From assembly GCA_001304105.1 (NCBI GenBank), contig LJUR01000002.1:1-62586 (forward strand): a stretch of DNA of 62,586 nt. The letters run 5' to 3'. A program made the position numbers and the translations under genes. This DNA is from Deltaproteobacteria bacterium SM23_61 (lineage in GTDB: Bacteria > Desulfobacterota > SM23-61). Shown here piece by piece: positions 17,027 through 56,746 of the stretch (positions are counted from its first letter, which is position 1; the number at the start of each line of letters is the position of its first letter). The notes below the pieces were generated by a model. That model saw only the letters and a list, made by a program, of their open reading frames with translations. It did not search any database and was not told the origin of the DNA.

Positions 17027-17307
17027 AATTTTGTCCAAAGTTCTGTGAAAAAATGCATCAATAGGAAGACAGGGAAAATTTATTGATAATAAATCGCTTT
17101 GGAATGAGTTGAATATACAAAAAAGGGGATTGTGTGTCAAGAGAATTTAAAGAAAACTTAAATGCAAATTTAAATACAAATACAATTTAAATTCAAAATG
17201 GGGCGGGCGATATCGGGCAGTAACGAATTTCTTCAATGAATCAGAAAGCGGTTCTTTGGTCCGAGGCAGCAGCCCGGGAACTCCGAATCCAAGTTGCTGG
17301 AACCGAC

Positions 17308-19345: not shown

Positions 19346-20698
19346 TTATTCTAGGGTGAACACCTGTGGCTGATCCAGTTTCGTATTCAGGATTTCTAGG
19401 GCGCGCTGGATATATTTTTTCCGTAATTTTTTTTCCTTCTCACGGTCCAATTTGGTGTCCCCCAGGACGCTTGTCACATTGATTCCTTGCAGAATTCGGT
19501 TGACTCCTATCATTTTGCTCACCGAGGGAACGGCTGTGATATTGACTACTGGAAGCCCCACTCCTTCAATTTCTGATGCGATCGTTGCCCCGCAACGAGT
19601 ACTCGATCCTCAGGTCGAGGTGAGAATGACACCTCCTACCTTCGTGCTCTTCAGATCCTGGGCCATTTCTCTTCCTATTCTTTCGCACACACTGGCCGTA
19701 TTGGCATTGCCCGAGGTTGAATAAATAAAGGGATGAAGCTTGCCGACTAAGCCTTCCTTCTCCAGGTCCCGCATGGCATCGACGGGTACCAAGCGGTTGG
19801 GGTTTCCCAGCACGTGCAAAGGATAGTAGCCTGTATGCACGACTTCATAGTTTTCGGCCGAATAATTCTGGGGCAGAAATTGATCAATTTCATATTTGGA
19901 CCAAACTACATTACCCCTTCCCCGAAAACCATCCGGGTTTCCCTTCCATGTCAATCCTCCATCACTAATCAAAGCAATCTCGGCTTTGGTCAAATCCGCA
20001 ATGGGAGAAGGAGGGGGAATGGCTCTTTCCTTCACCTTTCCTGCCTCGGTTAGAAACGGTTTCCCCTGAATTTTGGCCAGCAGCATGTCAACGCCGCGGG
20101 CGGCGGCGGTTTTTTCCGTAAACTCATTCTTCAAGAGCCCTCTGGGGAAATAATCCCCTTCTTCCGGCCTGATGATGTTCTCCCCGGAAATCAGCCGAGT
20201 CCCTCTCTCCGGGGAAAGAATATGAAACGCCAGGTTTACCATCTTGGTCAAATCCTCGGCCATTTTGGCTGCGCTTTTTCCAGTGCGGCAAATGTAGACA
20301 TCTCGACGATATAATTCCACTCCCGGATTCTCGACAAACATGCCCGTGATCGCCGGAATAGCGAGCCTCTCCTGGACCTTCCTGCAAATTGCCCCGCAGG
20401 ATAAACCGTATCTTCCCGCTTCAAAAGCCGGGCCAGCGAAAAAGAGTTCCGGGGTGAAGGACGCGGCGAGCCTGACTCCATCTTCTGCTGCCTTTTCCAA
20501 ATTATCAGCAAAATAGTTGTCTCCGCAAATAATCGTACCAACGACTTCCCCCTTCTCTCCCAGAATTTTCTGCAAGGCCATTCCAGGGCCTACCGGGCCT
20601 TTTTTTACCATGAAGGGCAAATCCGCCTTCTCCTCTTGTCCCACCTGACCGAAAAACTGATTCAGGTAGTGGACAACCTTCAATTTGCTCGGAGTCAT
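19346..20698 (-). CDS. GrdB/GrdF/GrdH/PrdB-family selenoprotein B (reductase component B), with Sec encoded by TGA at 19610-19612
   Basis: ORFs 19610..20698 and 19346..19561 are in the same frame and separated only by the TGA. Read-through gives GGVILTST-U-GSSTRCGATIASEIEGVGLPVV, which is the family's Sec-site signature. Confidence 0.9.
19583..19597 (-). promoter_or_regulatory. SECIS-like hairpin for the GrdB-family gene
   Basis: The RNA reads CGUUGC-GGG-GCAACG and begins 12 nt after the UGA. Confidence 0.6.
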
Positions 20699-20727: not shown

Positions 20728-22026
20728 TTAATATTCACAAGCAATGATTTTCGCCCCCCCGAGATGGTTGTACAGCCCGGCTAGGAACATCCCTTCCACT
20801 TCCAGTACAGGATCGCCCGCTTTTTGCTTGAACTCAGGGTTATAAACCAAGGTTTCAGATGTCCCCCCCAATATTTTCAAATCACCCGGCCGTGGTAGAC
20901 CAATCCTTTCCAGGGTTTGGCCCAGGTTCACGACCGCATTCAATACTTCTGTATCGAACAGGAGCGAATCGGAGCGTGTTCCGACGCTGTGGCCGAAATT
21001 GACGAAGACAGTTGTTTTTACGCCCAGGGCTTCGCAGGCCTCTCCCACCATACTGATATCCACGTGGGGCATTCCGCCATGTACCTTGGTTAAAATCGCC
21101 CCGTCCGCTCCCAGATAATTAGCGATCAGATTTCCCACCATATTGGCCATTCTCTGCCGTTGAATGGGATCGACGGTGGCGACCCCGATCACAGTTCCGG
21201 CAAACCACAATTCTTTCCCGTGCCGTTTGTACAATTCAAGGATTAGAGGATGATTTTGGATGCTGTACGTTTCCATCTTTCGAATGGTGTGGGTGCTGAC
21301 CAAGGCACCGTCCAAAATCTCATTGGGATGGAGGAGGGTTGGCATCAGGTCAGTGACATCTCTCCCATAAAGCATCGGATCCCCAATTCCCTTATAATCA
21401 TGCTGGGGAGTATGGATTTGATAGTAATAGACAATCCTTGGAAGACTTCCCCTATTTTGGGAAAGGACCAGGGGGATATCCAAATCGAAAATTTCCACCT
21501 GATCGGGAGAGGTTCCAACGCTGCTCCGGGCTAGATAGACGGCTATTTTTAAGCCCGCCACTTTTAGAGCCGTTTCAAAAGCCCTCTCTTCGACACCCTC
21601 TGCTGGAATGGGATGGATAACGAGGTTTTGCATTTTTCCGTAGATTCCCCGGTCCGCCCCCAGTCCAAACATATCGATAACTGAGGAATAGAGTCGCTTG
21701 GAAAAGCTGTTGGACAGAACGACCGCAATTCCCCGCAAAGATCTCGTTTTTCCCTGCCCTGCAATTACCAGCTTCCCCAAATACCCCGGAAAATCCTCTT
21801 TTTCATGACCCAGCTTGCATCGAGGTTGGATTACATCGACCACGTTAACAATCCGCACCGGCTCGCCAGGGGAGGTAACATTTAGCTCTACCGATAGAAT
21901 CCGTTCGTCTCTCAGGATAATTTCTTCCAATTCCTTTAGATTTATGTACAAAACGTGATCTGATACTCCCGTATGGGTCCCGGGTCGTACAGCTTGGATA
22001 TCAATCGATTCGATTTCCAATCTCAT
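20728..22026 (-). CDS. GrdE/GrdG/GrdI-type glycine/sarcosine/betaine reductase component B alpha/beta proprotein
   Basis: Family-typical N-terminus MRLEIESIDIQAV...GVSDHVLYINLKEL and length. The ATG at 22026 is preceded by GGAGG at a 6-nt spacing. The longer ORF start (22062) lacks an RBS. Confidence 0.85.
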   Translation of the reverse strand: MRLEIESIDIQAVRPGTHTGVSDHVLYINLKELEEIILRDERILSVELNVTSPGEPVRIVNVVDVIQPRCKLGHEKEDFPGYLGKLVIAGQGKTRSLRGIAVVLSNSFSKRLYSSVIDMFGLGADRGIYGKMQNLVIHPIPAEGVEERAFETALKVAGLKIAVYLARSSVGTSPDQVEIFDLDIPLVLSQNRGSLPRIVYYYQIHTPQHDYKGIGDPMLYGRDVTDLMPTLLHPNEILDGALVSTHTIRKMETYSIQNHPLILELYKRHGKELWFAGTVIGVATVDPIQRQRMANMVGNLIANYLGADGAILTKVHGGMPHVDISMVGEACEALGVKTTVFVNFGHSVGTRSDSLLFDTEVLNAVVNLGQTLERIGLPRPGDLKILGGTSETLVYNPEFKQKAGDPVLEVEGMFLAGLYNHLGGAKIIACEY

Positions 22027-22301
22027 ATCCAGCCTCCTTTTCTCAACAATTGATATGGCCATCTATAAGAGCGGACAAGTTTAGGCCTTGCTTTCCCCGA
22101 ATGAAGCCCATCCCATTATCCATTTCCCCAAATTGAGCGATGGTATTGAGCCGTATGAAGGGATTGTTTCCAGGACGGGAATACTCCGGTTAAAATTATT
22201 ATGAACGGAGCTATGGAAATGATTTTCCTTTGTGTATCCATATTGCGTGCATCTCTATTTCAGGGTGCCACCGGCCCACTCCTCTTTCCCTGTTTCCTTC
22301 G

Positions 22302-44512: not shown

Positions 44513-45478
44513 CTAAGTCGACCGGATCTCCTGGCGCATGAAGATCGCGTAGGAGATGGCGAAGCAGACCAGGGTAATGGCGACAAGGGTGATGAGGTGG
44601 GGGAAGACGATATGGACGCTCTCCGACAGGGTGAGAGGGTTCTGGAAACGGGAGATGGAAAGCCTTTCGAAGGGCCCCATGAGGATGAGCGACTGGGTCG
44701 TCTTCCGCAGGGGGTCCAGGATGATGGTCGTGGATTCGCTGTAGAGGGTCATGGGAGAGACCAGGGAAATGGCTTTGCGGGTCTGCTCGTTCTTGACGAC
44801 CAATTCGGGGGCCTGCGAGGCCTGCGATGGGTCGAAGGGAGCAATCATGTCGGCCATCACTCCCGCCCCCATGGGCACAAAGAAGAAGAAAAAGATCCAA
44901 CAGGCGATGGCCGCCAGGGCTGAAGTGGCCATGCTCCGGAAGCTTACCGAGAAGAGGATGGAAATGCCCAGCCAGAAGCCGATGTAGAAGATGCTGATTA
45001 ACAGGTAGATGAGCAGCCGGTAGACCTCCTCCGGGCCGGGTACCACCCCGATGAGCAGCAGTCCCAAGCCCGAGATCATGAGAACAATGGCTACCATCAT
45101 GACCACAATGGTGACCAGGCCGGCCAGAAACTTTCCGTTGATGATGTAGTCACGGAAGATGGGCTGGGAGGCCAGCTTGCTCAGCGTCCGGGTGCTTCGC
45201 TCCCGGTTCACCGCGTCGAAGCCCAGGACGATCCCGATGATGGGTCCGAAGATGGAAATGAACTGGATCAGGGAAAGGAACTTCCCCGGGGAAGTGAAGA
45301 GCATGAGAAATACGAAAGTGGGCTTGGCCACATCCTTGAGTTCTTCCTTCAGCCCGGTCCCCACCATGAAGGCGATGACCATGCTCACCATGAGGATCAG
45401 GTAGAAGAGGAGGGTAAACCGGGTGCTGCTGAAGTGGTCGGCCAGCTCTTTGCGGCAGATGGTGATCATTCCTTTCAC
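44513..45478 (-). CDS. ABC-2-type transporter permease
   Basis: 6 TM segments. N-terminus ICRKELADHFSSTRF is typical of ABC-2/NosY-like permeases. 4-nt overlap with the ATPase gene. Confidence 0.8.
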   Translation of the reverse strand: MKGMITICRKELADHFSSTRFTLLFYLILMVSMVIAFMVGTGLKEELKDVAKPTFVFLMLFTSPGKFLSLIQFISIFGPIIGIVLGFDAVNRERSTRTLSKLASQPIFRDYIINGKFLAGLVTIVVMMVAIVLMISGLGLLLIGVVPGPEEVYRLLIYLLISIFYIGFWLGISILFSVSFRSMATSALAAIACWIFFFFFVPMGAGVMADMIAPFDPSQASQAPELVVKNEQTRKAISLVSPMTLYSESTTIILDPLRKTTQSLILMGPFERLSISRFQNPLTLSESVHIVFPHLITLVAITLVCFAISYAIFMRQEIRST

Positions 45479-46233
45479 GATTGCCCCTCCTTGAAATACT
45501 TCATGTAAAGCTCTTCCAATGTGTACTGCCCTTCCTCGAGTCCAAGCTTTTCTTTGGCCAGGTCCTCGATCCGGCCCACGGCGACCATGTTCCCTTTGAG
45601 CATGATCCCGATCCGGGAGGAGATCTTCTGGACCTGGTCCAGGAGATGGGAGGACAAGAAGACGGTGATTTTCTTGTCCCGGCTCAGAGACTGGATCAGA
45701 TTCAGCATCTGGAGCGACCCGTCGGGGTCCAAGCCCAGGGTCGGTTCATCGAGAAAGACCACCTGGGGATTTTTCAGCAGGACTTCCGCAATCCCCAGGC
45801 GCTGCCGCATGCCCCGGGAGAACTCCCCCACCTTCTTCTTCGGCTCCGGTTTCAGGTCCACCAGGTTCAGCAGCTCTTCGATTTTGACCAGGGCCTCTTC
45901 GTCCGGAATTCCGTTCAACCGGCTGATGAACAGGAGGTTCTGGACCGCATTCATGTCGTCATAGAAACCCACGTTTTCGGGAAGATAGCCCACCACCCGC
46001 TTGACTTTCAACGCCTCCCGGGTGGGGTCGAAGCCGCATACCCAGGCTCTCCCCGAAGTGGGCTCGCTCAGGCCCAGCAACATGAGGAGCGTGGTGGTCT
46101 TGCCGGCTCCGTTCGGCCCCAGAAACCCGAAAACTTCTCCCTCGTTGATCTTGAGGGTCAGGGCGTTTACGGCCGTCTGTTCCCCGTATACCTTGGTCAG
46201 GTCCTGGGTCTCGATGATCGTCTGTCCGTTCAC
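45475..46233 (-). CDS. ABC transporter ATP-binding protein
   Basis: Walker A GPNGAGKTT, signature FSRGMRQRL, Walker B VVFLDEPT. GTG start 5 nt after GGAGGAG. Confidence 0.9.
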   Translation of the reverse strand: MNGQTIIETQDLTKVYGEQTAVNALTLKINEGEVFGFLGPNGAGKTTTLLMLLGLSEPTSGRAWVCGFDPTREALKVKRVVGYLPENVGFYDDMNAVQNLLFISRLNGIPDEEALVKIEELLNLVDLKPEPKKKVGEFSRGMRQRLGIAEVLLKNPQVVFLDEPTLGLDPDGSLQMLNLIQSLSRDKKITVFLSSHLLDQVQKISSRIGIMLKGNMVAVGRIEDLAKEKLGLEEGQYTLEELYMKYFKEGQS

Positions 46234-46234
46234 G

Positions 46235-47458
46235 TTATCTCCTCCCCAGCCACAGGAACAGCGCGCCCAGCCCGGCAATGACCAGCACGATGATGATGAT
46301 TCCGATCCATCCCCAGGCGGCGGAAGTTTTTACCGACACCCTCATTTCCACTGTTTTGCTGCTGCCTTTCTCCCCGTCGACGGAAAGACCCACCGAATAA
46401 TCACCCACCAGGGCCTGACCCGCTGGAGTAATGATTACCTCGACCTGCTTCATGGCATCCGGTTCGAGGGCGTCGATCTTCTCCGGCTTGAACTCCACCT
46501 TCCAGTTCTCCGGCTTGAAAGAGCTGAAACTGATATTCTTGTTCACCGCCGAGCCGGTGTTCTTCACAAAAAGCGACATCTGGGCCGCCTTGCCGGCGAG
46601 AGCCTCCAGAGACAGAAGGCCGGTGGGAGTCCCGGCATCGAGCTTATAGATTCCCGTGAGAATGACCGTCAGCTTCACATCCTGTTTCTTATCCCCCGAA
46701 GTAATCCCGACGACGATGGGGAAGGAACCCGCCTTGGCATCCCTGGGCGGGGTCACTTCCACGGCCACGTTCTGGCTGGAGCCGCCTTTGATCCGGAAGC
46801 TGGAGATCTGCTTCTGCTCGTAGGCCGGCTTGAAGCTGACCTCCCATTTGGCCGGGGCCTGGGCGGAGAGGTTGAAGTTCCGATCCGCTTCACTCTTGTT
46901 GTTGACTTCCAGGGAGAATTCGAACTTGGCGTCCGTCTGCCCCTTGAGGACGGGGTAGGAGGTGGTTACGGTGAAGTCTTCCCCCATCGCTGTCCTTTCG
47001 CGCACGGTCACGTTGATCTTCTGGGTGGAGGTAAACCTCCCGTCCTCGGTCTGAGCGTCGATCTGGAAATGGTACTCTCCGGGCTTGACCTTCTTATCCG
47101 GCTCGGCCAGGAAGGTCAGGGTCCGGGCCTTGGTGGCCGGCACCGGAACAGCAGCGACAATGAAATTGGGGGCCTTGAGGGAAGCCCTCCAGCCCTTGGG
47201 AACCTGGCTGATTTTCATGGAAATATTCTCGTCCCTTTTTCCCTTATTCTCCGCGGTAAGATCCATGCGCACGGATTCGCCCGGAGGTACGATGACCCCG
47301 GAATATTCGGTGTAAATGGCGATTCCCCTCTCTGGACGAGGGATAACATCTTTATCCTTGTCCGACTGGGCCGTCGCCGTCCCGCCGATCGACAATGACA
47401 ATAGAATAAGGATAGAGAAAATCAAAACCGATTTCAGCCCAATGCTTCCCCGACGCAT
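46235..47458 (-). CDS. Exported, C-terminally membrane-anchored protein with repeated beta-sandwich (NEW3/CARDB-like) domains
   Basis: Signal peptide, three similar ~100-aa modules (...KPGEYHFQID..., ...KAGSFPIVVG..., ...LVGDYSVGLS...), and a C-terminal TM helix. Confidence 0.6.
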   Translation of the reverse strand: MRRGSIGLKSVLIFSILILLSLSIGGTATAQSDKDKDVIPRPERGIAIYTEYSGVIVPPGESVRMDLTAENKGKRDENISMKISQVPKGWRASLKAPNFIVAAVPVPATKARTLTFLAEPDKKVKPGEYHFQIDAQTEDGRFTSTQKINVTVRERTAMGEDFTVTTSYPVLKGQTDAKFEFSLEVNNKSEADRNFNLSAQAPAKWEVSFKPAYEQKQISSFRIKGGSSQNVAVEVTPPRDAKAGSFPIVVGITSGDKKQDVKLTVILTGIYKLDAGTPTGLLSLEALAGKAAQMSLFVKNTGSAVNKNISFSSFKPENWKVEFKPEKIDALEPDAMKQVEVIITPAGQALVGDYSVGLSVDGEKGSSKTVEMRVSVKTSAAWGWIGIIIIVLVIAGLGALFLWLGRR

Positions 47459-48932: not shown

Positions 48933-50135
48933 TCAATCCTTATCGACCCCCGCCGCGCTGATCCACCCCTTCACTTCTTCATCCTCGGGAAGAGCCTTCT
49001 CCATAGTTTGCAACTTGAAAAGGAAGTGGTTCCCCTGGATCCCGGCCTCTTTCGCCCGTTTCAGTTCTTCCTGGAGGGCAGTTCTTTGACGGGTGATCTC
49101 GCGGATTGACCGCTCACGGTGGGGGTTGACCTTATCGGGTTGCCTCTTCCTGGCTGTCTCCAGGCCGCGAATATAAAGGTCGAGGCCGTCGATCCTTTCC
49201 TGAAGGTACTGGACCTCTCCGGCGTCCCGGAAGGGCTTGGATGGGTCTTCCAGGGTCAACTGCAGCCGGCCCACATACATCCCTTTGCGGGAAGACTGAA
49301 AAATGTGGGTCATTCCGGCCCGAACGGCTCTCCGGGTAAAGCGTCCTTCATGACCTCCCAGGATGAAGTGAATCCCCGGTAGCTCTTTGGCCACCCTCTG
49401 GTCCTTGTAAAGGCCCAGGTCGGAAATAATAATGGCCAGGTCGGCTTTTCCCTTGATTTTCCCCAGGGTCTCCCTGGCCGCATCGATCGGGTCGGCGATC
49501 AGGATCCTTCCTTCATTGGCCCGCTGGATGGCCGGGCTGATCTCCGGTCCTGATTCGGGCGGCAAAAGCCCGACGAAAGCGATCCGCACCCCCCCCACTT
49601 CCTTTATCACATAGGAAGGAAAGATGGGGGATTTGGTGGAAGGATCCAGAAGGTTGGCAGATATGAGGGGAAGTCCCTGGGAATATTCCTGCCGCAGGAA
49701 GTCCACGCCCTGCAGGAGGTCCAGGCACCCCACGTTCACCGCCGCAGCGCCCATGTGGCGGTAGGCGCGGCCGATGATCTGGGCCTTCTTCAGCGCCTTC
49801 TCAGAATCGGAATCGTTTCGAAAGCTGAAGAAAAGATCCCCGGAATCCACCACCAGGGTTCGCTGATTTTCCCTTTGAACTTTCTCCACCCAAGCCACCC
49901 GCCGGGCCAGACCGCCCAGCACCCGGTCCCCTCAGGTCGGGCAGGGGAGGATGTAGCCGGTCACGTTGTTGGTGTGGAGAATCAGAATCTCCGTCTCTCC
50001 TGATTCGGCAGGCGGGGCGGGAAAAAGAAAAAGGGACCAGGCAAAGATGAAAGAAAGGATCCCCCAAAAACTCTTGGTTGCCGGAAACCATTTTTTCAAA
50101 GCGATGACCTCATCTTTGAATCTTTTCAATATCAT
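48933..50135 (-). CDS. Exported degenerate 5'-nucleotidase/metallophosphoesterase-like protein with predicted selenocysteine (C-P-T-U; TGA at 49932-49934)
   Basis: ORFs 49932..50135 and 48933..49922 share a frame across the TGA. Read-through gives ILILHTNNVTGYILPCPT-U-GDRVLGGLARRV...VVDSGDLFFS. The paralog at 52923..54314 has a TGA at the homologous position. The downstream ORF has no ATG or signal peptide of its own. Confidence 0.7.
49903..49918 (-). promoter_or_regulatory. SECIS-like hairpin
   Basis: The RNA reads UGGGC-GGUCUG-GCCCG and starts 13 nt after the UGA. The GGUCU loop resembles the E. coli fdhF SECIS apical loop. Confidence 0.6.
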
Positions 50136-50204
50136 CGGAATTATTGTAACACAACTTTACCGATCGCCGGCAGGAGCAGGCCGCCGAGGCGTGATGAGTC
50201 GCCC

Positions 50205-50621
50205 CTACCCTTCCTGGGCGGACAAAAAGCCGATGATTTTTTCCCGGATTTGATCCCTCAACTTCCGGAAGAAGGAGATCTTCTCCTCCTCAGTGCCCTT
50301 GACGGTCGCGGGATCGGGAAAGCCCATGTGCATCCTCCGCGTTCCGCCGAAGAAAACCGGGCAGCTTTCCGCCGCGTGATCGCACAGAGTTATGACAAAA
50401 TCGAATCTCTCATCCGCAAACTCGTCAATCGACTTGGATCGATGCCGGGAAATATCGATTCCCGCCTCTTTCATCGCAGCGATGACCAGGGGATTAACGG
50501 AAGAGGGCTCTGTCCCGGCGGAGAAAGCCTGCACCTTCCCCGCCAGGTCATGATTGACCAAGCCCTCGGCCATCTGGCTCCGGGCGCTGTTATGGGTGCA
50601 GATGAAGAGAACCCGTTTCAC
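50205..50621 (-). CDS. arsC: Arsenate reductase, thioredoxin-coupled LMW-PTP type
   Basis: CTHNSARS P-loop plus the downstream Cys pair (LCDHAAESCP). Confidence 0.9.
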   Translation of the reverse strand: MKRVLFICTHNSARSQMAEGLVNHDLAGKVQAFSAGTEPSSVNPLVIAAMKEAGIDISRHRSKSIDEFADERFDFVITLCDHAAESCPVFFGGTRRMHMGFPDPATVKGTEEEKISFFRKLRDQIREKIIGFLSAQEG

Positions 50622-50738
50622 TCTATGCTTCTCCTTCTATTCATCGCAATCGGAATCCCCATTTTCCCCTTTGCCGGTTGTCGGTTCCGGCTTTCAGGGT
50701 TCGCACGGGCATTTTTCTCCTATGGTTTTTTAATTTCC

Positions 50739-50972
50739 TTACTGGACCATTTTCTTGATCTCTTCCACGGAGGGAAGTTTCCCGGCCACTTTCACGGTTC
50801 CATCCACCACCAAGGCCGGGGTGATCATGACCCCGTAGCTGCTGATCTGTTTGATGTCTTTTATCTTCAAGACTTCGGCCTCGATGCCGAGTTCTTTGAC
50901 CGCCTGCCTGGCTCGATCCTCGAGCTGGTTGCACTTGGGTCAACCCATTCCCAAAACTTCGACTTTTTTCAT
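50739..50972 (-). CDS. Thioredoxin_3-type small redox protein (redox-active disulfide protein 2 family) with a U-x-x-C active site (TGA at 50940-50942)
   Basis: Not in the ORF track, because the TGA is at codon 11. The translation is MKKVEVLGMG-U-PKCNQLEDRARQAVKELGIEAEVLKIKDIKQISSYGVMITPALVVDGTVKVAGKLPSVEEIKKMVQ. The family consensus is GxGCxxC. Confidence 0.85.
50911..50925 (-). promoter_or_regulatory. SECIS-like hairpin
   Basis: The RNA reads GCUCGA-GGA-UCGAGC and starts 14 nt after the UGA. Confidence 0.55.
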
Positions 50973-51042
50973 TTTTTCCTCCCTAAATCTTGTATTGGAC
51001 ACAGATGAACACAGCGCGGCAGAGCCGCAACCCAAACGGAAT

Positions 51043-51092
51043 CCCCCCCTCCCTCCCCTCCCCCCTCGAGGGGGAGGGTTAGGGTGGGGGGG
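51043..51092. repeat. C-tract/G-tract palindromic element (same family as 44362-44410)
   Basis: ccccctccctcccctcccccctcgagggggagggttagggtggggggg. It is flanked by ACACRGAT-type short repeats (50996-51016, 51184-51217) and a CTCTGTG unit (51271-51293). Confidence 0.8.
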
Positions 51093-51305
51093 ATGCTTTT
51101 TGCCCAACAGAACTTAACGACTTTGCAAAACAGTAGTAGAGATTGACCTCACGCCTTACTCATCACTTTTCACTGCTTTTATTGGGACACGGATGAACAC
51201 GGATACACGCAGATAAGGATCAATCAAAAAAAAATAAAAGATTTTGCCAAATAGCGCGTAATCTTTTTCTTTGTGCTCTCTGTGACCTCTGTGCTTAAAT
51301 CGTTT

Positions 51306-52358
51306 TCAGAAAATGAAATTCCCGGTGAACCATCCTACCAAGGTCCCCAGAATCGTAATCAAGGGAACATAAACCAACCCCTTTTTCAGGCCAAAGACCT
51401 TCAGGATGGCCAGCATGTTGGGGAGGCTCATCCCGGGGCCGGTCAGGAGAAGGGCCAGGGCCGGCCCTTTGCCCATGCCCATTTCCATCAGCTTATGAAC
51501 GAAGGGTGCTTCGGTCATGGTGGCCATGTACATGATCTGGCCGATCAATGTGGCCAGGAAAGAAGGGAATATGCCCGACCCGCCCAGCCAGCTCTCGATC
51601 CACTGCTGGGGAAGAAGCTTCCCGATCACTCCGACGACGAACACCCCTCCCAACAACAAGGGAAAGATGATCCGGACAAACCACCAGCTCTCAGTCATCC
51701 ACTGGCGCATTTCCTCACCGGATTTGACCTTCCAGGCATAAAGGGCGACGATGACCATCCCCGCAGCCCAGACATACACTTTATGCAGGAAGGGCCCCTT
51801 TTGGACAAGGTAATTGGGGGCCAGAAGGTCGGCTACGATCAAGAGAAGGAGGATGACATCCTTGCGGGCCACGATCCTTTTCCCTCCAGGGTGGATGTCC
51901 ACTGCGGTCACTCTCTTGATCTCTTCCTTGCGGAAGGCGAGACTCATGACCCAACCCACCACGAAGGCCATGGCCAGGGCTGAAAGGACTCGGACCACCA
52001 CCATCTCCGTCCCCAGGATAGCCCCGGTATAGACCAGGGCCAGGATGTTGGCCGCCGGGGCCACCCAGAGAATGATGAAGGCCGCCCCGATCCCGCTTCC
52101 GCCGTAATACAGGCCGCTGGAAACGGGGATCACCGTGCAGGAGCAGGCGGCCACGAAAAAACTGCCCCCGCTGGCCAGGGTGAAGGATCTCAGTTTATTG
52201 GCGGCACTTCCCAGGTAATAAATGATGGTTTCCTTGGATATAAACGTAACCATGGCCCCGGCCAGAAGGAAAGCCGGTATCAGGCAGGTAATCACATGAA
52301 GGGCGATGTAATCCTGTAAAGCTTGCAAACCGGCATAAATCAATTCCCAGAAGAACAT
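51306..52358 (-). CDS. Predicted permease (ArsP/DUF318-type, PF03773-like)
   Basis: Multi-TM protein with ...VITCLIPAFLLAGAM...FFVAACSCTVIP... typical of this permease family. ATG at 52358 (alternative GTG at 52409). Confidence 0.75.
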   Translation of the reverse strand: MFFWELIYAGLQALQDYIALHVITCLIPAFLLAGAMVTFISKETIIYYLGSAANKLRSFTLASGGSFFVAACSCTVIPVSSGLYYGGSGIGAAFIILWVAPAANILALVYTGAILGTEMVVVRVLSALAMAFVVGWVMSLAFRKEEIKRVTAVDIHPGGKRIVARKDVILLLLIVADLLAPNYLVQKGPFLHKVYVWAAGMVIVALYAWKVKSGEEMRQWMTESWWFVRIIFPLLLGGVFVVGVIGKLLPQQWIESWLGGSGIFPSFLATLIGQIMYMATMTEAPFVHKLMEMGMGKGPALALLLTGPGMSLPNMLAILKVFGLKKGLVYVPLITILGTLVGWFTGNFIF

Positions 52359-52407
52359 TTTCTTGCGCTTCCTTTTCCCAATTTTGATGATCTCGTGAAA
52401 AGTCCTC

Positions 52408-52484
52408 ACTCCGGTGAAAACCGGAGTCCAGGATATTTATAGACCTTTGAAAATACAGGATTCCGGCTTCCGCCGGAATGACGG
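52408..52484. repeat. Double-hairpin REP-like element (GGAATGACG / CGTCATTCC family)
   Basis: ctccggtgaaaaccggagtccagga...caggattccggcttccgccggaatgacgg. Related copies lie at 55289-55372, 56807-56877, 57731-57805 and 62541-62586. Confidence 0.8.
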
Positions 52485-52522
52485 GAAGGATGGTCTTAGG
52501 ACTTTTACGAGCTCATCAATTT

Positions 52523-52846
52523 TTATATTTGCGCCAGGACCTTTCTTTGCTCCATCAGCTCCCGCTTCAGGAGCAGTCCCACTTTGTCCAATATCTCAAA
52601 GATTTCCGGGCCTTTGACCTTCACCATCACCTTGACCCCGTCTTTGCGGGTGGTGATCAGGTGGCTCTTCTGCATCGTGGAAATGTGCCGGGAAATATTG
52701 GACTGTTCCCCGTTGATGGCCGGCACAATTTCACAGATACATCTCTCCCCGTGGCGGAGCAGTTCCAGGATCTTCAAGCGCGTGGGCTGGGCAAGAGCTT
52801 TCAGGACTTCCGCCTTTAAATAAACCGCCCTTTCTTGCATATTCAT
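52523..52846 (-). CDS. arsR: ArsR/SmtB-family metalloregulator
   Basis: LKALAQPTRLKILELLRHGERCICEI...SNISRHISTM (HTH with the CxC metal site). Confidence 0.9.
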   Translation of the reverse strand: MNMQERAVYLKAEVLKALAQPTRLKILELLRHGERCICEIVPAINGEQSNISRHISTMQKSHLITTRKDGVKVMVKVKGPEIFEILDKVGLLLKRELMEQRKVLAQI

Positions 52847-52922
52847 TCTCCATGCATTTATGATTAATTAATCATAAATGCAAAAAAAATATGAGTCAAG
52901 CGATTTCTTAAACTCGGTCCCT

Positions 52923-54314
52923 TCACTTCGAGGCTGGGCAGCGCACTTTCGTGAGGGAGGGGGCGTAATCGAAGTTGGGGCTCTTGGCCGGGTTGTGGCA
53001 GAGGAGGCACTGCTTTTCGCCCACGGGGGGAAGCTTCTTCCCATCTTCTGGATGTCCCCTCCCGGGCCCATGGCAGGATTCACACTGGACATTCTCCAGC
53101 ACATCCCCAAAGCCGGAAACCTCCCCGAATCCGGTGGTATGGCAGGGAAGGCAGGTGTGGTCTCTTTCTCTCTTTTCACCGACCAGGGTTTGATAGGCCT
53201 TGGCATGGCCGGTCTTTTTCCAGTTCTCGTGCTGCGGCTGATGGCAGGAAAGGCAGGATGCCCCACCCATGTAATCGGAGACCGGGTAGGCATAGGTACC
53301 CTTTTGCATCCAGGGATCTTTTTCTGGGGAGCCGTTTTTCTTTTCCGCAAAATGCAGGGGCTTGGAGTCAGCCCGGAACTGGTTCACCAGTTTGGCCGTT
53401 TGGGGGTGGTCCTTATAGAAATCCCGTAGAGTTATGATCTGGTAATTGGACAAGAGGCGCGTTTCGTCCGGTTTCTCCTTGAGGAAAAACTCCATCTGCC
53501 CGAGATACTCTCCCCGGGTCCCGGCGGTGAGGATCTGGGCGTTATTGACCTCCACCGGCTGCCTTTTAAGCCCGCGTTCATGCCCGCTGACCACGAAGTA
53601 AACCTCCCGGAACGTTTCGGCGAGTTTCCGTTGCTCACTCTCATCCATGTGGGTAATAGCAATGATGACTTTGCTTTTTTTCTTTTTCAACTCACCGATC
53701 ACCTGCCTGGCCGCCTCGAGGGGGTCGGTTAGCCGATAAGCCGCTTTGTCATGGGGGTCCAGGCTTCCGGAAAAGCGGTTTGAAAGAAGCCCGAAAAGCC
53801 CGACCCGGATGCCCCCCTTTTCCTTGATGAGGTAAGGCCGGAACACCGGCTTTTTTGTCTTCAGGTCCTGGAGGTTGGCGAGGAGAAAGGCGAATTTCGC
53901 CTTTTGGCTCATTTTCTTCAGTTCTGCGATCCCCCAGGAGAGATCCACCTCCCCCGGAGTGAAGGCATCGTATCCCATGAGGTTGTAGGTTTGCAGGAAT
54001 AGGTTCGCCTTCAGGGCGGTAAGGTCCCGGTCTCTTTTGGGCAGGCCAAAAATTTCATGCCCGGCGGAATAGAGAAGGTCCCCGGAGTCCACCAAAAGGA
54101 CATTTTTTTTGTCTTTGCGCAGCTTTTCCAGGAAGGAAGCCCGCCTGGCCAGACCGCCAAGCTTGCCCCCCCCTCAGCCGCAGGGCTCGTACTCGCCGTA
54201 GAGGTTCGAGCTGAAGACCAGGGTGATGATCTGCTCCGGCTTCACCCCGGGGGGCTGCCCCCAGGAATTGAAGGGGATCAGGCAAAGGAAGAAAAAAATC
54301 AAAAGTCTTTTCAT
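52923..54314 (-). CDS. Exported degenerate metallophosphoesterase-like domain with predicted selenocysteine (C-G-U; TGA at 54174-54176), fused to a C-terminal tetraheme cytochrome c
   Basis: The frame from ATG 54314 gives MKRLLIFFFLCLIPFNSWG(signal)...VFSSNLYGEYEPCG-U-GGGKLGGLARRA...LLVDSGDLLYS and continues into ORF 52923..54095. The C-terminus has CLSCH, CLPCH, CESCH and CLLCH. Confidence 0.75.
54145..54160 (-). promoter_or_regulatory. SECIS-like hairpin
   Basis: The RNA reads UUGGC-GGUCUG-GCCAG and starts 13 nt after the UGA. Geometry and loop match the paralog. Confidence 0.6.
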
Positions 54315-54368
54315 GAAAAAGTCCAAGCAATGGTGATTACGCTCTTCATTCTAGCATTCCCGTTTGGA

Positions 54369-55055
54369 TCAGTCCTTATCTTTCTTGCCCTTTGCCGCAT
54401 TTTCGTCCTTGGAAGACCCCGCGGGGGTTTTCCCGAAATTATCCCTCAGGATCTCCAGGGCCCTGATCACTTCCAGCCTGCCCACATGGGTCGCCTTTTG
54501 ATCTCCATGGACGATCACGCAGGAGGGGGTGGAGCGAATCTGATCTTCCTGCAGGTAACGATTCCAGAGGCTGAAAACCGGGTTCACATCGACGGGCTTC
54601 AGGGCGATCTCTTTTTCTGTCAGCAGATTGACCAGCTGGTCTTTATCGACCATCCTTTGCCGCGCCGCTTCAAAGAGAACCCTTCTCGTATGTAAGGCGG
54701 AATCAAAATCATTTTTCTGCCCCAAGGCGGAGAGAAAATACCGGACATACAAAACGGTATGCTCGCTGGCGGGGACATCGATAAAAGTGAGATGGACGGC
54801 TCCATCCTTGACCAAATCGAGGAGGAGGGGTTCAAGGTCGGGTTCCATGTCCCGGCAGGGGGAGCAGAAATAATCGCTGTAGAGCCGCACCTCGATCGTG
54901 CCGGTCCCGAAAGAAGGCAGAAAGTCTTCCTGCCCCCCCGTCGTTTCCCACCCGGCCACCCCCGAACCGAAAATCAGAAGAGCGGCCCAGGGGATCATCG
55001 CGATCCATTTCATGAATTTTTGGTTCCATTTGGGCTTCCGAATAAACCCATTCAT
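54369..55055 (-). CDS. Exported DsbA-like thioredoxin-fold oxidoreductase (CSPC)
   Basis: Signal/anchor sequence, YSDYFCSPCRDMEP active site, and a helical insertion typical of DsbA-like proteins. Confidence 0.8.
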   Translation of the reverse strand: MNGFIRKPKWNQKFMKWIAMIPWAALLIFGSGVAGWETTGGQEDFLPSFGTGTIEVRLYSDYFCSPCRDMEPDLEPLLLDLVKDGAVHLTFIDVPASEHTVLYVRYFLSALGQKNDFDSALHTRRVLFEAARQRMVDKDQLVNLLTEKEIALKPVDVNPVFSLWNRYLQEDQIRSTPSCVIVHGDQKATHVGRLEVIRALEILRDNFGKTPAGSSKDENAAKGKKDKD

Positions 55056-55432: not shown

Positions 55433-56746
55433 TCAAAAATAGTAGCGGGCCCGGAATTCCAGCCGGTAATCATTGGGCTTTTCCCCGAATTCCGTTTCGT
55501 CCCCCCCGACCAGGAACATGGTCTTGAGGCGCAGTTCCAGGTTGGTAATGCCCGTATAGGCAACCTCGGGGGCGATGGAAAAGCTGGGATCTCGAAGATT
55601 TACAATCGTGGTTAGGGCCGGCGTGAAATAAAGAATATCGAAGGGCTCCTTCTGGCTGACCCGCAGGTAGAGATAGTCCCTCATGGGGTTGGGCCGGCTG
55701 TAATTCCCCTGGCTCAGGTTCAGTGCTCTTGCCAGGAGAGCATCGCTCCCTGTGGCCAGGTATTGATCATAGGCCCGGTCGACGAAGCGGTAAAAATCCT
55801 GGAACTCGCTTTTGTTGAACCCCGTCCCGTTCCGATAATACTCGAGGATATAGGTTGTCTCCCGCTGGCTCAGGTATCGCAGTCCCAATAGGTAGCTGAC
55901 GGTATCACTGGTCAAGCTGAGGATATTTCCCTGCGAGTCGGTGTATCTCTTTTGGAAATCCTCGATGTAGGCGAACTCGCCATGAACCTCGAAATTTGAA
56001 GTCATATTGCGGGAGAAGTCCACCCCGTACCGGGTGGTCCGGCTCCCGCCCGTAAAGACAATGAAATCGATATCCGTGTCATAGAGAAGGAGGTAAAGCT
56101 TGGCGGCGATGTTGGCCTGGTTGGTCTTGCCGAAATCGTCATTGATTCCTTCCAGGACCGGCAGGAGAACAGGAGTAAAGGAAAGGGTCTTCAAGGGTCC
56201 GGAAAAACTCCGGATCCAGTCGGCGGAAAGAACCCAGAACCCCTCCAGGGCCAGATCCGGCTCATCGGGGTCCTTCGGCCGGTCAATGAAGGCCACCGGG
56301 TTCCAGGCGTATCCTTTTCCCCACTTCAGCACCTTCTTGCCCGCATCCATGGTCAGTGCATGGGAGGGCTTCAGGGACAGGAAGGCCTCGTAAGGCGTAA
56401 GATCATCCTCCCAGCCCAGGTAGGTGTTGTTCAGATCATAGCTGAGCCGCACGAAAAAGCGGGCGTTGTCTTTCTCGTAACTCCCATCGACCAGGAGTTT
56501 GAAATTGGATTCCCCGGTGGTTTTCCCTTCATCCCGGTTGTAGAACTTCAGCTTGTAGAGCGCTGCATCCTGGTCTTGAACGTTCAGGACCGGCCGGAAC
56601 TCCCCGTATCCCCCCACGTGGTAGGGCTTCTTTTCGATCTCCGAGATGTCGAACTTGTATTCTTCCTTCTTTTCTTCCGCCCGGCTCAAGCAGGGTAGAG
56701 AAAGAATGAAGATCCAGAAGATGATCGAATAGATGGGCCGGCTCAT
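55433..56746 (-). CDS. Outer-membrane beta-barrel protein (porin-like)
   Basis: Signal peptide, alternating amphipathic beta pattern, and C-terminal ...EFRARYYF ending in an aromatic residue. Confidence 0.7.
   Translation of the reverse strand: MSRPIYSIIFWIFILSLPCLSRAEEKKEEYKFDISEIEKKPYHVGGYGEFRPVLNVQDQDAALYKLKFYNRDEGKTTGESNFKLLVDGSYEKDNARFFVRLSYDLNNTYLGWEDDLTPYEAFLSLKPSHALTMDAGKKVLKWGKGYAWNPVAFIDRPKDPDEPDLALEGFWVLSADWIRSFSGPLKTLSFTPVLLPVLEGINDDFGKTNQANIAAKLYLLLYDTDIDFIVFTGGSRTTRYGVDFSRNMTSNFEVHGEFAYIEDFQKRYTDSQGNILSLTSDTVSYLLGLRYLSQRETTYILEYYRNGTGFNKSEFQDFYRFVDRAYDQYLATGSDALLARALNLSQGNYSRPNPMRDYLYLRVSQKEPFDILYFTPALTTIVNLRDPSFSIAPEVAYTGITNLELRLKTMFLVGGDETEFGEKPNDYRLEFRARYYF

What the first reader, a model, noticed from the sequence alone, without database searches (positions are those of the whole stretch)
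52923..54314. In-frame TGA joins a signal peptide to a metallophosphoesterase-like/tetraheme cytochrome c protein (C-G-U motif)
- From ATG 54314 the frame encodes a signal peptide and VFSSNLYGEYEPCG, then TGA (54174-54176). It continues without interruption into ORF 52923..54095 (GGGKLGGLARRA...LLVDSGDLLYS...).
- The downstream ORF has no start codon with an RBS and no signal peptide. Yet it ends in four CxxCH heme motifs, which need export for maturation. It therefore only makes sense as a read-through product.
- A UUGGC-GGUCUG-GCCAG hairpin starts 13 nt after the UGA.
- The classical phosphoesterase metal ligands are degenerate: DxH becomes SSNLYG, GNHEFD becomes GEVDLS, GGHSH becomes SGHER. 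Only the GD motif remains.
Basis: partly seen in the sequence, partly recalled or inferred. Interest (0 to 1): 0.85.

Follow-up and report, generated by a model that had tools for sequence, protein, structure and literature searches.

The report
Known UshA-like tetraheme selenoprotein gene

Summary
ATG 54314 to stop 52923 (- strand) is one 463-codon frame with a single in-frame TGA (54174-54176) inside ...YEPCG-U-GGGKLGGLARR.... The joined product scores 336.6 bits on NCBIfam NF041198 "UshA_like_PCGU, UshA-like (seleno)protein" (cutoff 275), and that profile also covers the tetraheme domain. Sixteen sequences (the window plus 15 homologous loci) carry TGA at this column and 12 distant homologs carry Cys. 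Codons on both sides of the TGA show the same coding pattern of variation. The downstream hairpin (7 bp, loop GGUCUG, 18 nt after UGA, -11.9 kcal/mol) meets all published bacterial SECIS criteria. TGA is otherwise a normal stop, including for this gene. The window holds three more Sec-type genes: GrdB, an ArsE-type thioredoxin, and a heme-less UshA-like paralog. The family has been listed since 2008 (COG0737 UshA-like, CxU), and GenBank simply mis-calls this copy as a 390-aa hypothetical protein. Function is untested. The phosphoesterase metal ligands are largely lost, and only PCG[U/C] and the hemes are invariant, which points to a heme-fed Cys-x-Sec redox site. The only tightly linked neighbour is a DsbA-like thioredoxin. 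The adjacent ArsR-type operon has its own promoter. Verdict: real, interpretation supported, already known.

The parts
52923..54314 (-). Complete gene for the UshA-like (PCGU) tetraheme selenoprotein, 463 codons including Sec47. Its own stop is TGA at 52923-52925.
   Evidence: frame. NF041198 at 336.6 bits, cutoff 275. GenBank calls only the 390-aa downstream part (AMJ94_00535, hypothetical protein).
54258..54314 (-). Probable Sec-pathway signal peptide, residues 1-19 (MKRLLIFFFLCLIPFNSWG|QPP).
   Evidence: Read directly from the sequence. The same n-h-c layout with a WG/WA-Q junction occurs in homologs. No predictor was run.
54174..54176 (-). In-frame UGA read as selenocysteine (U47) in the motif P44-C45-G46-U47.
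   Evidence: TGA in 16 sequences and Cys (TGC/TGT) in 12 at the same alignment column.
54128..54173 (-). Bacterial SECIS element. The core hairpin is 54143-54162 (GCUUGGC-GGUCUG-GCCAGGC), set within a longer helix.
   Evidence: 7-bp stem, 6-nt loop starting GG, 18 nt from the UGA, -11.9 kcal/mol. This meets all criteria quoted from PMC13188914. It is conserved in L001-L007.
53415..54233 (-). UshA/5'-nucleotidase-like N-terminal (calcineurin-fold) domain with degenerate metal ligands, about residues 28-300.
   Evidence: 3jyf 1.5e-13, 2z1a 9e-12, 1ush 8.6e-11, with alignments. (conservation).
52926..53279 (-). Cytochrome c554-like tetraheme domain. CxxCH motifs lie at 53241-53255, 53139-53153, 53070-53084 and 52995-53009.
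   Evidence: PF13435 at 48 bits, cutoff 20.8; 1bvb at 9.7e-9; four CxxCH in all full-length family members. NF041198 profile positions 361-519 cover it.
54369..55055 (-). DsbA-like Thioredoxin_4 gene immediately upstream. It is the only tightly conserved neighbour in the near clade.
   Evidence: PF13462. (L001-L006). (L042, L046, L050, L051, L052).
52853..52899 (-). Promoter-like site (TTGACT-17-TATGAT) overlapped by a perfect 30-bp palindrome (52853-52882). It probably marks the start of the next, ArsR-regulated, transcription unit.
48933..52846 (-). Adjacent ArsR-type operon. In order: ArsR/SmtB regulator (52523-52846), ArsP_1 permease (51306-52409), Sec-containing ArsE-type thioredoxin (50739-50972, TGA 50940-50942), LMWP-type ArsC (50205-50621), and a heme-less UshA-like paralog with PCPT-U (48933-50135, TGA 49932-49934).

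Best explanation
This is one gene (54314 to 52923, - strand) for an exported selenoprotein of the curated family 'UshA-like (seleno)protein' (NCBIfam NF041198, motif P-C-G-U).

Shown here:
- UGA47 lies in frame.
- A stem-loop of bacterial SECIS type follows it.
- The column alternates between Sec and Cys across homologs.
- Sequence on both sides of the UGA is under coding constraint.
- The N-terminal domain has the 5'-nucleotidase/UshA fold signature but has lost most dimetal ligands.
- A c554-like tetraheme domain is fused at the C-terminus in all full-length family members.

Inferred from established knowledge:
- SelB bound to Sec-tRNA(Sec) recognises the hairpin and inserts selenocysteine at UGA47.
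- The Sec translocon exports the pre-protein, and the periplasmic Ccm system attaches four c-type hemes.

Inferred function (not tested):
- The old phosphoesterase pocket has been rebuilt around the invariant Cys45-Gly-Sec47 loop, which sits directly after metal motif I.
- This pair acts as a two-electron selenenylsulfide/selenol-thiol redox centre.
- The fused tetraheme wire charges or discharges it, making the protein a self-contained periplasmic cytochrome-linked thiol/selenol oxidoreductase.
- The DsbA-like Thioredoxin_4 protein encoded just upstream is the likeliest partner or substrate shuttle in this clade.
- The physiological substrate is unknown.

The confidence of 0.9 applies to the identity (a Sec-decoded member of NF041198). 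The proposed redox mechanism on its own is closer to 0.5.
For: - **Frame and TGA:**
- **Family membership:** NF041198 at 336.6 bits against a cutoff of 275. The heme domain matches profile positions 361-519 of the same model.
- **Sec/Cys column:** TGA in the window and in L001, L002, L004, L005, L007, L008, L040, L042, L044, L046-L049, L051 and L052. Cys in L009-L021.
- **Coding constraint:** variable sites by codon position are 13/8/20 upstream of the TGA and 16/9/19 downstream.
- **SECIS:** all four published criteria are met, and the hairpin is conserved.
- **TGA is otherwise a stop:** it ends this gene and other long ORFs.
- **The organism uses Sec:** the GrdB-family protein spans its TGA, with TIGR01918 at 443.5 bits covering residues 7-447. 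The window also has an ArsE-type thioredoxin with U-x-x-C and a paralog with PCPT-U.
- **Gene-caller artefacts:** callers elsewhere produce a 46-aa stub plus a ~390-aa ORF, as expected for a TGA at codon 47.
- **Degenerate metal site and invariant residues:** P44, C45, U/C47 and the hemes are invariant.
- **Literature:** COG0737 UshA-like, CxU motif (PMC2398784). NF041198 is listed in PMC13188914 and PMC9312934.
Against: - No selA, selB, selC or selD gene is in the window, and the rest of the MAG could not be examined.
- Hairpin stability is not significantly above shuffled controls (z = -1.3 to -1.8).
- Two Cys-type homologs (L012, L014) can form a similar hairpin, because the LGGLARR codons are partly self-complementary. 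The hairpin alone is therefore not proof.
- ATG 54314 has no obvious Shine-Dalgarno sequence.
- The functional part is inference only. No biochemical data exist, no structure could be predicted here, and distant homologs share no conserved neighbourhood.
- His222 and His245 are retained in the Sec clade, so a residual or new metal site cannot be excluded.
Confidence: 0.9

Rival explanations
1. The TGA is a true stop. The locus is either a pseudogene with a nonsense mutation or an assembly error, or it is two separate genes: a 46-aa peptide and a 390-aa cytoplasmic protein.
For: GenBank and most gene callers annotate it this way. No strong Shine-Dalgarno precedes ATG 54314.
Against: - The same TGA occurs in 15 independent assemblies from several lineages, including Cloacimonadota.
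- Both sides of the TGA show codon-position constraint in one frame.
- Distant homologs read straight through with Cys.
- The downstream ORF would start inside a conserved motif, and it would lack an export signal despite carrying four c-type heme sites.
Confidence: 0.02
2. UGA is decoded here, but not as Sec. Either the lineage has reassigned UGA genome-wide (to Gly or Trp), or there is leaky near-cognate read-through.
For: Read-through of UGA by tRNA-Trp or tRNA-Cys is known in bacteria at low levels (general knowledge). The sel genes were not seen in the window.
Against: - TGA ends this gene and many other conserved ORFs in the window.
- The aligned residue in homologs is always Cys, the Sec signature.
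- A SECIS-type hairpin sits at the correct spacing.
- GrdB, a classical selenoprotein, has its TGA at the expected site in the same window.
Confidence: 0.02
3. The decoding is the same, but the chemistry differs. Cys45 and Sec47, together with the surviving Asp79, His222 and His245, bind a metal ion. This would form a new metal-selenolate catalytic site, analogous to Sec-ligated Ni or Mo/W centres, rather than a selenenylsulfide redox couple. The hemes would feed electrons to that metal.
For: - His222 and His245 are invariant in the Sec clade and in the 31-sequence alignment.
- D79 is kept as D or N.
- The PCGU loop lies directly after motif I, at the former dimetal site.
Against: The same positions are not conserved in the Cys-type Myxococcota members, which still keep PCGC and the four hemes. 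There are only two invariant Cys/Sec residues in the N-domain. No metal-chaperone gene is consistently adjacent.
Confidence: 0.2
4. The protein is still a hydrolytic phosphoesterase, either a nucleotidase or a SoxB-type thiosulfohydrolase. On this view the heme domain is an accessory.
For: There is sequence similarity to CpdB, UshA, YfkN and SoxB.
Against: - The catalytic and metal residues are replaced: DxH becomes NxY and GNH becomes GEV.
- The 5'-nucleotidase C-terminal substrate-binding domain is absent and is replaced by the cytochrome.
- Scores are far below family cutoffs: SoxB 76 against 550, UshA 68 against 600.
Confidence: 0.04

Closest known systems
NCBIfam NF041198 'UshA_like_PCGU', UshA-like (seleno)protein. 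Equivalent to 'COG0737, UshA-like' with a CxU motif in Zhang & Gladyshev 2008 (PMC2398784).
   Same: The whole protein scores above the equivalog cutoff. It has the P-C-G-U motif, the UshA-like N-domain and the C-terminal tetraheme region covered by the profile, and it shows Sec/Cys alternation.
   Different: Nothing substantive. This copy is merely unannotated as a selenoprotein in its GenBank record.
NCBIfam NF049981 'UshA-like (seleno)protein family 2' (CxxU)
   Same: It has a UshA-like fold with Sec in the loop after motif I. The window's second gene (48933-50135) carries C-P-T-U, which is a CxxU motif.
   Different: The main protein scores 59 bits against a cutoff of 140. The paralog scores 78 against 140, and 222 against 275 on NF041198. 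The paralog therefore fits neither curated model at threshold, and it lacks hemes.
E. coli UshA, T. thermophilus 5'-nucleotidase, CpdB and YfkN (calcineurin-like dimetal phosphoesterases; PDB 1ush, 2z1a, 3jyf, 3gve)
   Same: The N-terminal domain is homologous, with motif order I-V and the GGxARR helix.
   Different: Metal and catalytic residues are largely replaced. There is no C-terminal nucleotide-binding domain. A Cys-x-Sec loop and a tetraheme domain have been added.
SoxB thiosulfohydrolase (TIGR04486)
   Same: It belongs to the same superfamily, is periplasmic, and works in a sulfur-redox setting alongside cytochromes (general knowledge).
   Different: It scores 76 bits against a cutoff of 550. 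SoxB keeps a dimanganese site and has no Sec and no fused hemes (general knowledge).
Cytochrome c554 of Nitrosomonas (PF13435; PDB 1bvb)
   Same: It is a tetraheme electron-transfer module with four CxxCH motifs.
   Different: Here the module is a C-terminal domain fused to an enzyme-like domain, not a free electron carrier.
LMWP-type ArsC and Cdc25/Acr2 arsenate reductases (phosphatase folds converted to thiol-based oxyanion reductases)
   Same: The resemblance is conceptual only. A phosphoesterase scaffold has lost hydrolytic residues and gained a redox-active Cys/Sec pair. ars-type genes lie nearby in the near clade.
   Different: There is no homology and no activity data. The ars genes belong to a separate promoter unit, and distant family members lack any ars context.

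Membership tests
NF041198 UshA-like (seleno)protein (PCGU) | Whole-protein HMM score at or above the curated equivalog cutoff (275 bits) | tested here: met
   336.6 bits, E = 2.4e-100.
NF041198 UshA-like (seleno)protein (PCGU) | P-C-G-[U/C] motif in the loop after the first beta-strand | tested here: met
   P44, C45, G46 and U47. P, C and U/C are invariant in all 27 aligned family members.
NF041198 UshA-like (seleno)protein (PCGU) | C-terminal multiheme region included in the family profile | tested here: met
   The C-terminal 168 residues alone hit profile positions 361-519 of 519 at 126 bits. All full-length homologs have four CxxCH motifs.
Bacterial selenoprotein gene (general) | In-frame UGA aligned with Cys in homologs | tested here: met
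   16 TGA and 12 Cys codons at one column.
Bacterial selenoprotein gene (general) | bSECIS stem-loop: 3-9 nt loop, 4-16 bp stem, G in the first two loop positions, 16-37 nt after the UGA, MFE at or below -7.5 kcal/mol | tested here: met
   7-bp stem, loop GGUCUG, 18 nt spacing, -11.9 kcal/mol. Criteria are from PMC13188914. Caveat: some Cys homologs can fold similarly.
Bacterial selenoprotein gene (general) | The genome encodes selA, selB, selC (tRNA-Sec) and selD | not testable with these tools
   None are in the 62.6-kb window, and the other contigs of the MAG are not available. Indirect support comes from a canonical GrdB selenoprotein B with its TGA in the same window.
Bacterial selenoprotein gene (general) | Selenium physically present in the protein (75Se labelling or mass spectrometry) | not testable with these tools
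   Requires an experiment.
Calcineurin-like dimetal phosphoesterase / 5'-nucleotidase (catalytically competent) | Metal-ligand motifs DxH, GD, GNH(E/D), H and GHxH are intact | tested here: not met
   DxH becomes N37-x-Y39. GNHEFD becomes G-E122-V-D-L-S. GHSH becomes G-H245-E-R. GD (D79) and H222 are kept. These positions vary across the family.
Calcineurin-like dimetal phosphoesterase / 5'-nucleotidase (catalytically competent) | C-terminal 5'-nucleotidase substrate-binding domain | tested here: not met
   There is no Pfam hit to that domain, and the C-terminus is a c554-like tetraheme domain.
SoxB thiosulfohydrolase (TIGR04486) | Score at or above the cutoff of 550 bits | tested here: not met
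   76.4 bits.
Cytochrome c554-type tetraheme domain (PF13435) | Pfam gathering score reached and four CxxCH motifs present | tested here: met
   48 bits against a cutoff of 20.8. CxxCH at residues 354, 388, 411 and 436. 1bvb at 9.7e-9.
NF049981 UshA-like (seleno)protein family 2 | Score at or above the cutoff of 140 bits | tested here: not met
   59.4 bits for the main protein and 78.1 bits for the paralog.

The most novel reading that the evidence does not exclude
The family, and with it the three-selenoprotein cluster at 48933-55055, could be a selenium-dependent periplasmic system for reducing or detoxifying phosphate-like oxyanions such as arsenate (or related metalloid or chalcogen species). 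In this reading the dead phosphoesterase pocket still binds the oxyanion. Cys45 and Sec47 carry out an ArsC-like thiol/selenol reduction, and the fused tetraheme domain re-reduces the selenenylsulfide from the respiratory chain. That would be a third independent conversion of a phosphatase fold into an arsenate-type reductase, and the first one wired to c-type hemes.
Probability: 0.1. Interest if true: 0.7.

Novelty: already known. Interest (0 to 1): 0.3.

Why it matters
- **Annotation.** The GenBank record, and nearly all metagenome gene calls for this family, split the gene into a 46-aa stub and a ~390-aa 'hypothetical' or 'multiheme cytochrome' protein. This hides the signal peptide and the catalytic Sec.
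- **Biology.** The family is widespread in anaerobic sediment bacteria (Desulfobacterota, Cloacimonadota) as the Sec form, and in Myxococcota, Planctomycetota and others as the Cys form. It combines three uncommon things: a disabled phosphoesterase scaffold, a Cys-x-Sec site and a fused tetraheme wire. It still has no assigned function.
- **Leads for experiments.** This work supplies the invariant residues, a consistent DsbA-like partner, frequent proximity to molybdopterin oxidoreductase and ars-type genes in one clade, and a heme-less Sec paralog inside an ArsR-type operon. None of this changes the fact that the finding itself is a known kind of selenoprotein gene.

Tried and rejected
- **Rfam.** A gathering-threshold scan of the whole window returned only tRNA-Val and no SECIS family hit, so the SECIS assessment had to be made by hand.
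- **tRNA-Sec.** ARAGORN found none in the window.
- **Fold significance.** Hairpin z-scores against dinucleotide shuffles were weak, so they were not used as primary evidence.
- **Hairpin specificity.** I tested whether the hairpin is specific to the TGA forms. It is not entirely, because L012 and L014 (Cys forms) fold similarly. SECIS covariation could not be shown, because the stem is encoded by the conserved LGGLARR peptide.
- **Structure prediction.** A model without the N-terminal strand would not answer the question, and no coordinates are returned, so I dropped this.
- **Neighbourhood enrichment.** 95 neighbour ORFs from 13 distant loci showed no recurrent family. I therefore rejected a family-wide operon hypothesis.
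- **Co-transcription with the ars genes.** I rejected this for the main gene, because a promoter-like site and a perfect 30-bp palindrome lie between its stop and arsR.
- **Literature.** Searches for functional work ('metallophosphoesterase' + 'multiheme cytochrome' + 'selenocysteine', and 'SM23_61') gave nothing relevant. One query was rejected for syntax.
- **Sec machinery.** Looking for sel genes in the MAG or its relatives was not feasible, because the MAG's other contigs are not held.
Full report
**1. The observation**

Reading 52800-54500 on the minus strand and translating 52923-54314 gives one 463-codon frame. It starts at ATG 54314 and ends at TGA 52923-52925. The single internal stop is TGA at 54174-54176, in the context ...ITLVFSSNLYGEYEPCG-TGA-GGGKLGGLARRASFLEKL....

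The N-terminus (MKRLLIFFFLCLIPFNSWG|QPP) has the layout of a signal peptide. Four CxxCH motifs lie at residues 354, 388, 411 and 436. The ORF finder's downstream ORF (52923-54095, TTG start) begins inside the conserved LLVDSGD motif and so cannot be the real start.

The hairpin exists: GCUUGGC-GGUCUG-GCCAGGC at 54143-54162, embedded in a longer helix. A scan of the whole window for ORF pairs joined by TGA gave 36 candidates. Only this gene and one other (see section 5) combine long conserved flanks with the strongest downstream folding.

**2. What it is**

With Sec written as Cys, the joined protein scores 336.6 bits (E = 2.4e-100) on NCBIfam NF041198 'UshA_like_PCGU, UshA-like (seleno)protein'. 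This is an equivalog model with a cutoff of 275 bits. The C-terminal 168 residues alone match positions 361-519 of the same profile, so the heme domain is part of the curated family architecture. Pfam sees Cytochrome_C554 (48 bits) and only a sub-threshold Metallophos match.

The literature already lists the family:
- 'COG0737, UshA-like', motif CxU, with 76 Sec and 92 Cys sequences in the GOS metagenomes (PMC2398784).

The window is a contig of the MAG 'Deltaproteobacteria bacterium SM23_61'. Its annotation calls only the 390-aa downstream ORF, as a hypothetical protein.

**3. Evidence that UGA47 is decoded as Sec**

(a) *Sec/Cys alternation.* Sixteen sequences carry TGA at the same column of EPCG*: the window plus L001, L002, L004, L005, L007, L008, L040, L042, L044, L046-L049, L051 and L052. 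L003 and L006 also carry the TGA but were left out of the count. These come from independent assemblies of deltaproteobacterial/Syntrophaceae MAGs and one Cloacimonadota MAG. Twelve more distant homologs (Planctomycetota, Myxococcota, Capsulimonas and others) have TGC or TGT there, giving EPCGC, SPCGC or EPCAC.

(b) *Coding constraint on both sides.* The 20 codons upstream of the TGA show the same third-position bias in variable sites (13/8/20 at codon positions 1/2/3) as the 20 downstream (16/9/19). Both sides are therefore coding in one frame.

(c) *Homolog starts.* In every homolog the signal peptide lies upstream of the TGA or Cys column.

(d) *SECIS criteria.* The hairpin meets all four bSECIS criteria quoted in PMC13188914. 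Those are a 3-9 nt loop, a 4-16 bp stem, a G in the first two loop positions, 16-37 nt from the UGA, and MFE at or below -7.5 kcal/mol. Here the stem is 7 bp, the loop is GGUCUG, the spacing is 18 nt and the MFE is -11.9 kcal/mol. The hairpin is conserved in L001-L007.

(e) *TGA is otherwise a stop.* It ends this gene and other long ORFs, which excludes a genome-wide reassignment.

(f) *The organism uses Sec.* The window also encodes a GrdB-family selenoprotein B whose TGA sits at ...LTST-U-GSSTRCGA.... The full-length match spans the TGA (TIGR01918 at 443.5 bits, residues 7-447).

Caveats:
- No sel genes or tRNA-Sec are in the window.
- The fold z-scores are weak.
- Two Cys homologs can fold similarly, because the LGGLARR codons are self-complementary.

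**4. Anatomy and likely mechanism**

Alignment to solved 5'-nucleotidase, CpdB and YfkN structures (3jyf, 2z1a, 1ush) places the PCGU loop immediately after motif I, between the first beta-strand and the GGxARR helix. That is at the rim of the former dimetal site.

| Motif | Canonical | This protein |
|---|---|---|
| I | DxH | N37-x-Y39 |
| II | GD | GD (D79 kept) |
| III | GNHEFD | G-E122-V-D124-L-S |
| IV | His | H222 kept |
| V | GHxH | G-H245-E-R |

In a 27-sequence alignment of full-length family members, the invariant or near-invariant N-domain residues are G40, P44, C45, U/C47, G53, G54, D76, G78, D124 and N147. The classical ligand positions vary, especially in the Cys-type Myxococcota members. 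All full-length members keep the four CxxCH motifs plus two conserved distal His residues. The 5'-nucleotidase C-terminal substrate domain is absent.

From this I infer the following, none of it tested. The protein is exported by the Sec pathway and matured by the heme-attachment system. Its catalytic centre is the Cys45-x-Sec47 pair, acting as a two-electron selenenylsulfide/selenol-thiol couple. The fused c554-like tetraheme domain is the electron conduit. A variant in which C45 and U47, together with D79, H222 and H245, bind a metal remains possible (about 0.2).

**5. Genomic context**

*Near clade (53% identity or more).* A DsbA-like Thioredoxin_4 gene always lies immediately upstream: in the window at 54369-55055, and in L001-L006, L042, L046, L050, L051 and L052.
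- L051 reproduces the window's upstream genes (MacB/FtsX, Nitro_FeMo-Co, LolA-like, unknown ~440 aa). It has a molybdopterin oxidoreductase operon inserted before Thioredoxin_4.
- L042 and L040 also place such operons next to the gene.
- L042 has the order NPCBM_assoc, ABC ATPase, ABC-2 permease, Thioredoxin_4, UshA. The window holds the same modules at 44513-47458.
- ars-type genes (ArsR, ArsP_1, LMWPc, SBF/Acr3) lie within 9 kb in the window, L006, L040, L042, L046, L050 and L052.

*More distant clade (~45% identity).* The gene sits between radA and a MobA-like gene.

*Distant homologs, mostly Cys-type.* They share no recurrent neighbour.

In the window, a promoter-like site (TTGACT-17-TATGAT) and a perfect 30-bp palindrome (52853-52882) lie between the gene's stop and the ArsR-family gene. 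The ars-type genes are therefore probably a separate, repressor-controlled unit. Context thus supports a periplasmic thiol-redox role with the DsbA-like partner. The arsenic link is suggestive only.

**6. Other Sec genes in the window**

The ArsR-type operon contains two more TGA-interrupted genes.
- A 77-aa MTH895/ArsE-family thioredoxin (50739-50972) with G-U-P-K-C. It scores 1e-27 on PF13192 and 108.5 bits on TIGR00412 against a cutoff of 62.
- A 400-aa heme-less UshA-like paralog (48933-50135) with ...ILPCPT-U-GDRVLGGLARR... and a CUGGGC-GGUCUG-GCCCGG hairpin.

The paralog's TGA is conserved in three other MAGs. It scores below both curated cutoffs: 221.8 against 275 on NF041198, and 78.1 against 140 on NF049981. 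With GrdB, the window therefore holds four Sec-type genes.

**7. Rivals**

- *Pseudogene, sequencing error or two genes.* Conservation and coding constraint effectively refute this.
- *UGA reassignment or non-Sec read-through.* This is contradicted by normal TGA stops, the Cys column and the SECIS.
- *An active nucleotidase or SoxB-type hydrolase.* The lost catalytic residues, the missing substrate domain and the far sub-threshold scores argue against it.

**8. Novelty and verdict**

However, the gene is a straightforward member of a selenoprotein family that has a curated model and has been listed in the literature since 2008. Its function remains unknown.

New here are only:
- the correction of this gene's annotation;
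- the family-wide residue analysis;
- the context survey;
- the neighbouring Sec-containing paralog and ArsE-type genes.

Interest is modest (0.3). The most novel reading not excluded is a heme-wired, selenium-dependent oxyanion (arsenate-type) reductase built on a dead phosphoesterase fold. I give it about 0.1 probability.

Noticed in passing
window 48933-50135 (-), TGA at 49932-49934: A second TGA-interrupted UshA-like gene of 400 aa with the motif ILPCPT-U-GDRVLGGLARR (CxxU). It has no heme motifs, an N-terminal hydrophobic anchor, a SECIS-type hairpin CUGGGC-GGUCUG-GCCCGG (-15.4 kcal/mol) and a helical C-terminal tail. It scores below both curated cutoffs (NF041198 221.8/275; NF049981 78.1/140). 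The TGA is conserved in L053-L055. It may be an unmodelled third UshA-like selenoprotein subfamily, located inside an ArsR-type operon.
   Followed up: partly
window 50739-50972 (-), TGA at 50940-50942: An unannotated 77-aa MTH895/ArsE-family thioredoxin-like gene (PF13192 1e-27; TIGR00412 108.5 bits) with Sec in the first position of its redox motif (G-U-P-K-C). A strong GGGAGG ribosome-binding site precedes it. It lies between the ArsP_1 permease and the LMWP ArsC gene. Its downstream hairpin is marginal (-6.8 kcal/mol).
   Followed up: partly
window 19346-20698 (-), TGA at 19610-19612; neighbour 20728-22062 (-): A GrdB-family reductase selenoprotein B (TIGR01918 443.5 bits) with in-frame TGA (...LTST-U-GSSTRCGA...), next to a Gly_reductase component B alpha/beta gene. 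It shows that the organism decodes UGA as Sec. The substrate class (glycine, sarcosine or betaine) is unresolved, because the scores fall below the specific equivalog cutoffs.
   Followed up: partly
window 52853-52882 and 52871-52899: A perfect 30-bp palindrome, TGCATTTATGATTAA|TTAATCATAAATGCA, overlaps the -10 hexamer of a 10/12 sigma-70-like promoter directly upstream of the ArsR/SmtB-family gene (52523-52846). It is probably that repressor's operator.
   Followed up: partly
L042 14689-15692; L052 11608-12611; L051 3481-5705; L050 12392-12553: Several genes near the homologs are called as two adjacent same-family pieces or as truncated stubs: ArsP_1 as 160+174 aa, molybdopterin oxidoreductase as 182+553 aa, and Thioredoxin_3 as 53 aa. 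This suggests further unannotated TGA/Sec genes, so these may be selenoprotein-rich islands.
   Followed up: no
L052 4299-5468 and 7603-8775: One metagenomic contig carries two copies of the UshA-like tetraheme gene about 2 kb apart.
   Followed up: no
L012 and L014, 48 nt after the Cys codon: Cys-type homologs keep a hairpin similar to the SECIS of the Sec forms (-21.4 and -20.7 kcal/mol). It is either a fossil SECIS or a by-product of the LGGLARR codons.
   Followed up: partly
window 55433-56746 (-): A 437-aa ORF with no Pfam or NCBIfam hit lies between the LolA-like and Thioredoxin_4 genes. A similar unannotated 442-aa gene occupies the same position in L051.
   Followed up: no
window 11954-14179 (-) and 15848-17140 (-): A 741-aa multi-WD40 beta-propeller protein and a Sel1-repeat/ankyrin-repeat protein lie in this bacterial contig. 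These are eukaryote-like repeat architectures.
   Followed up: no
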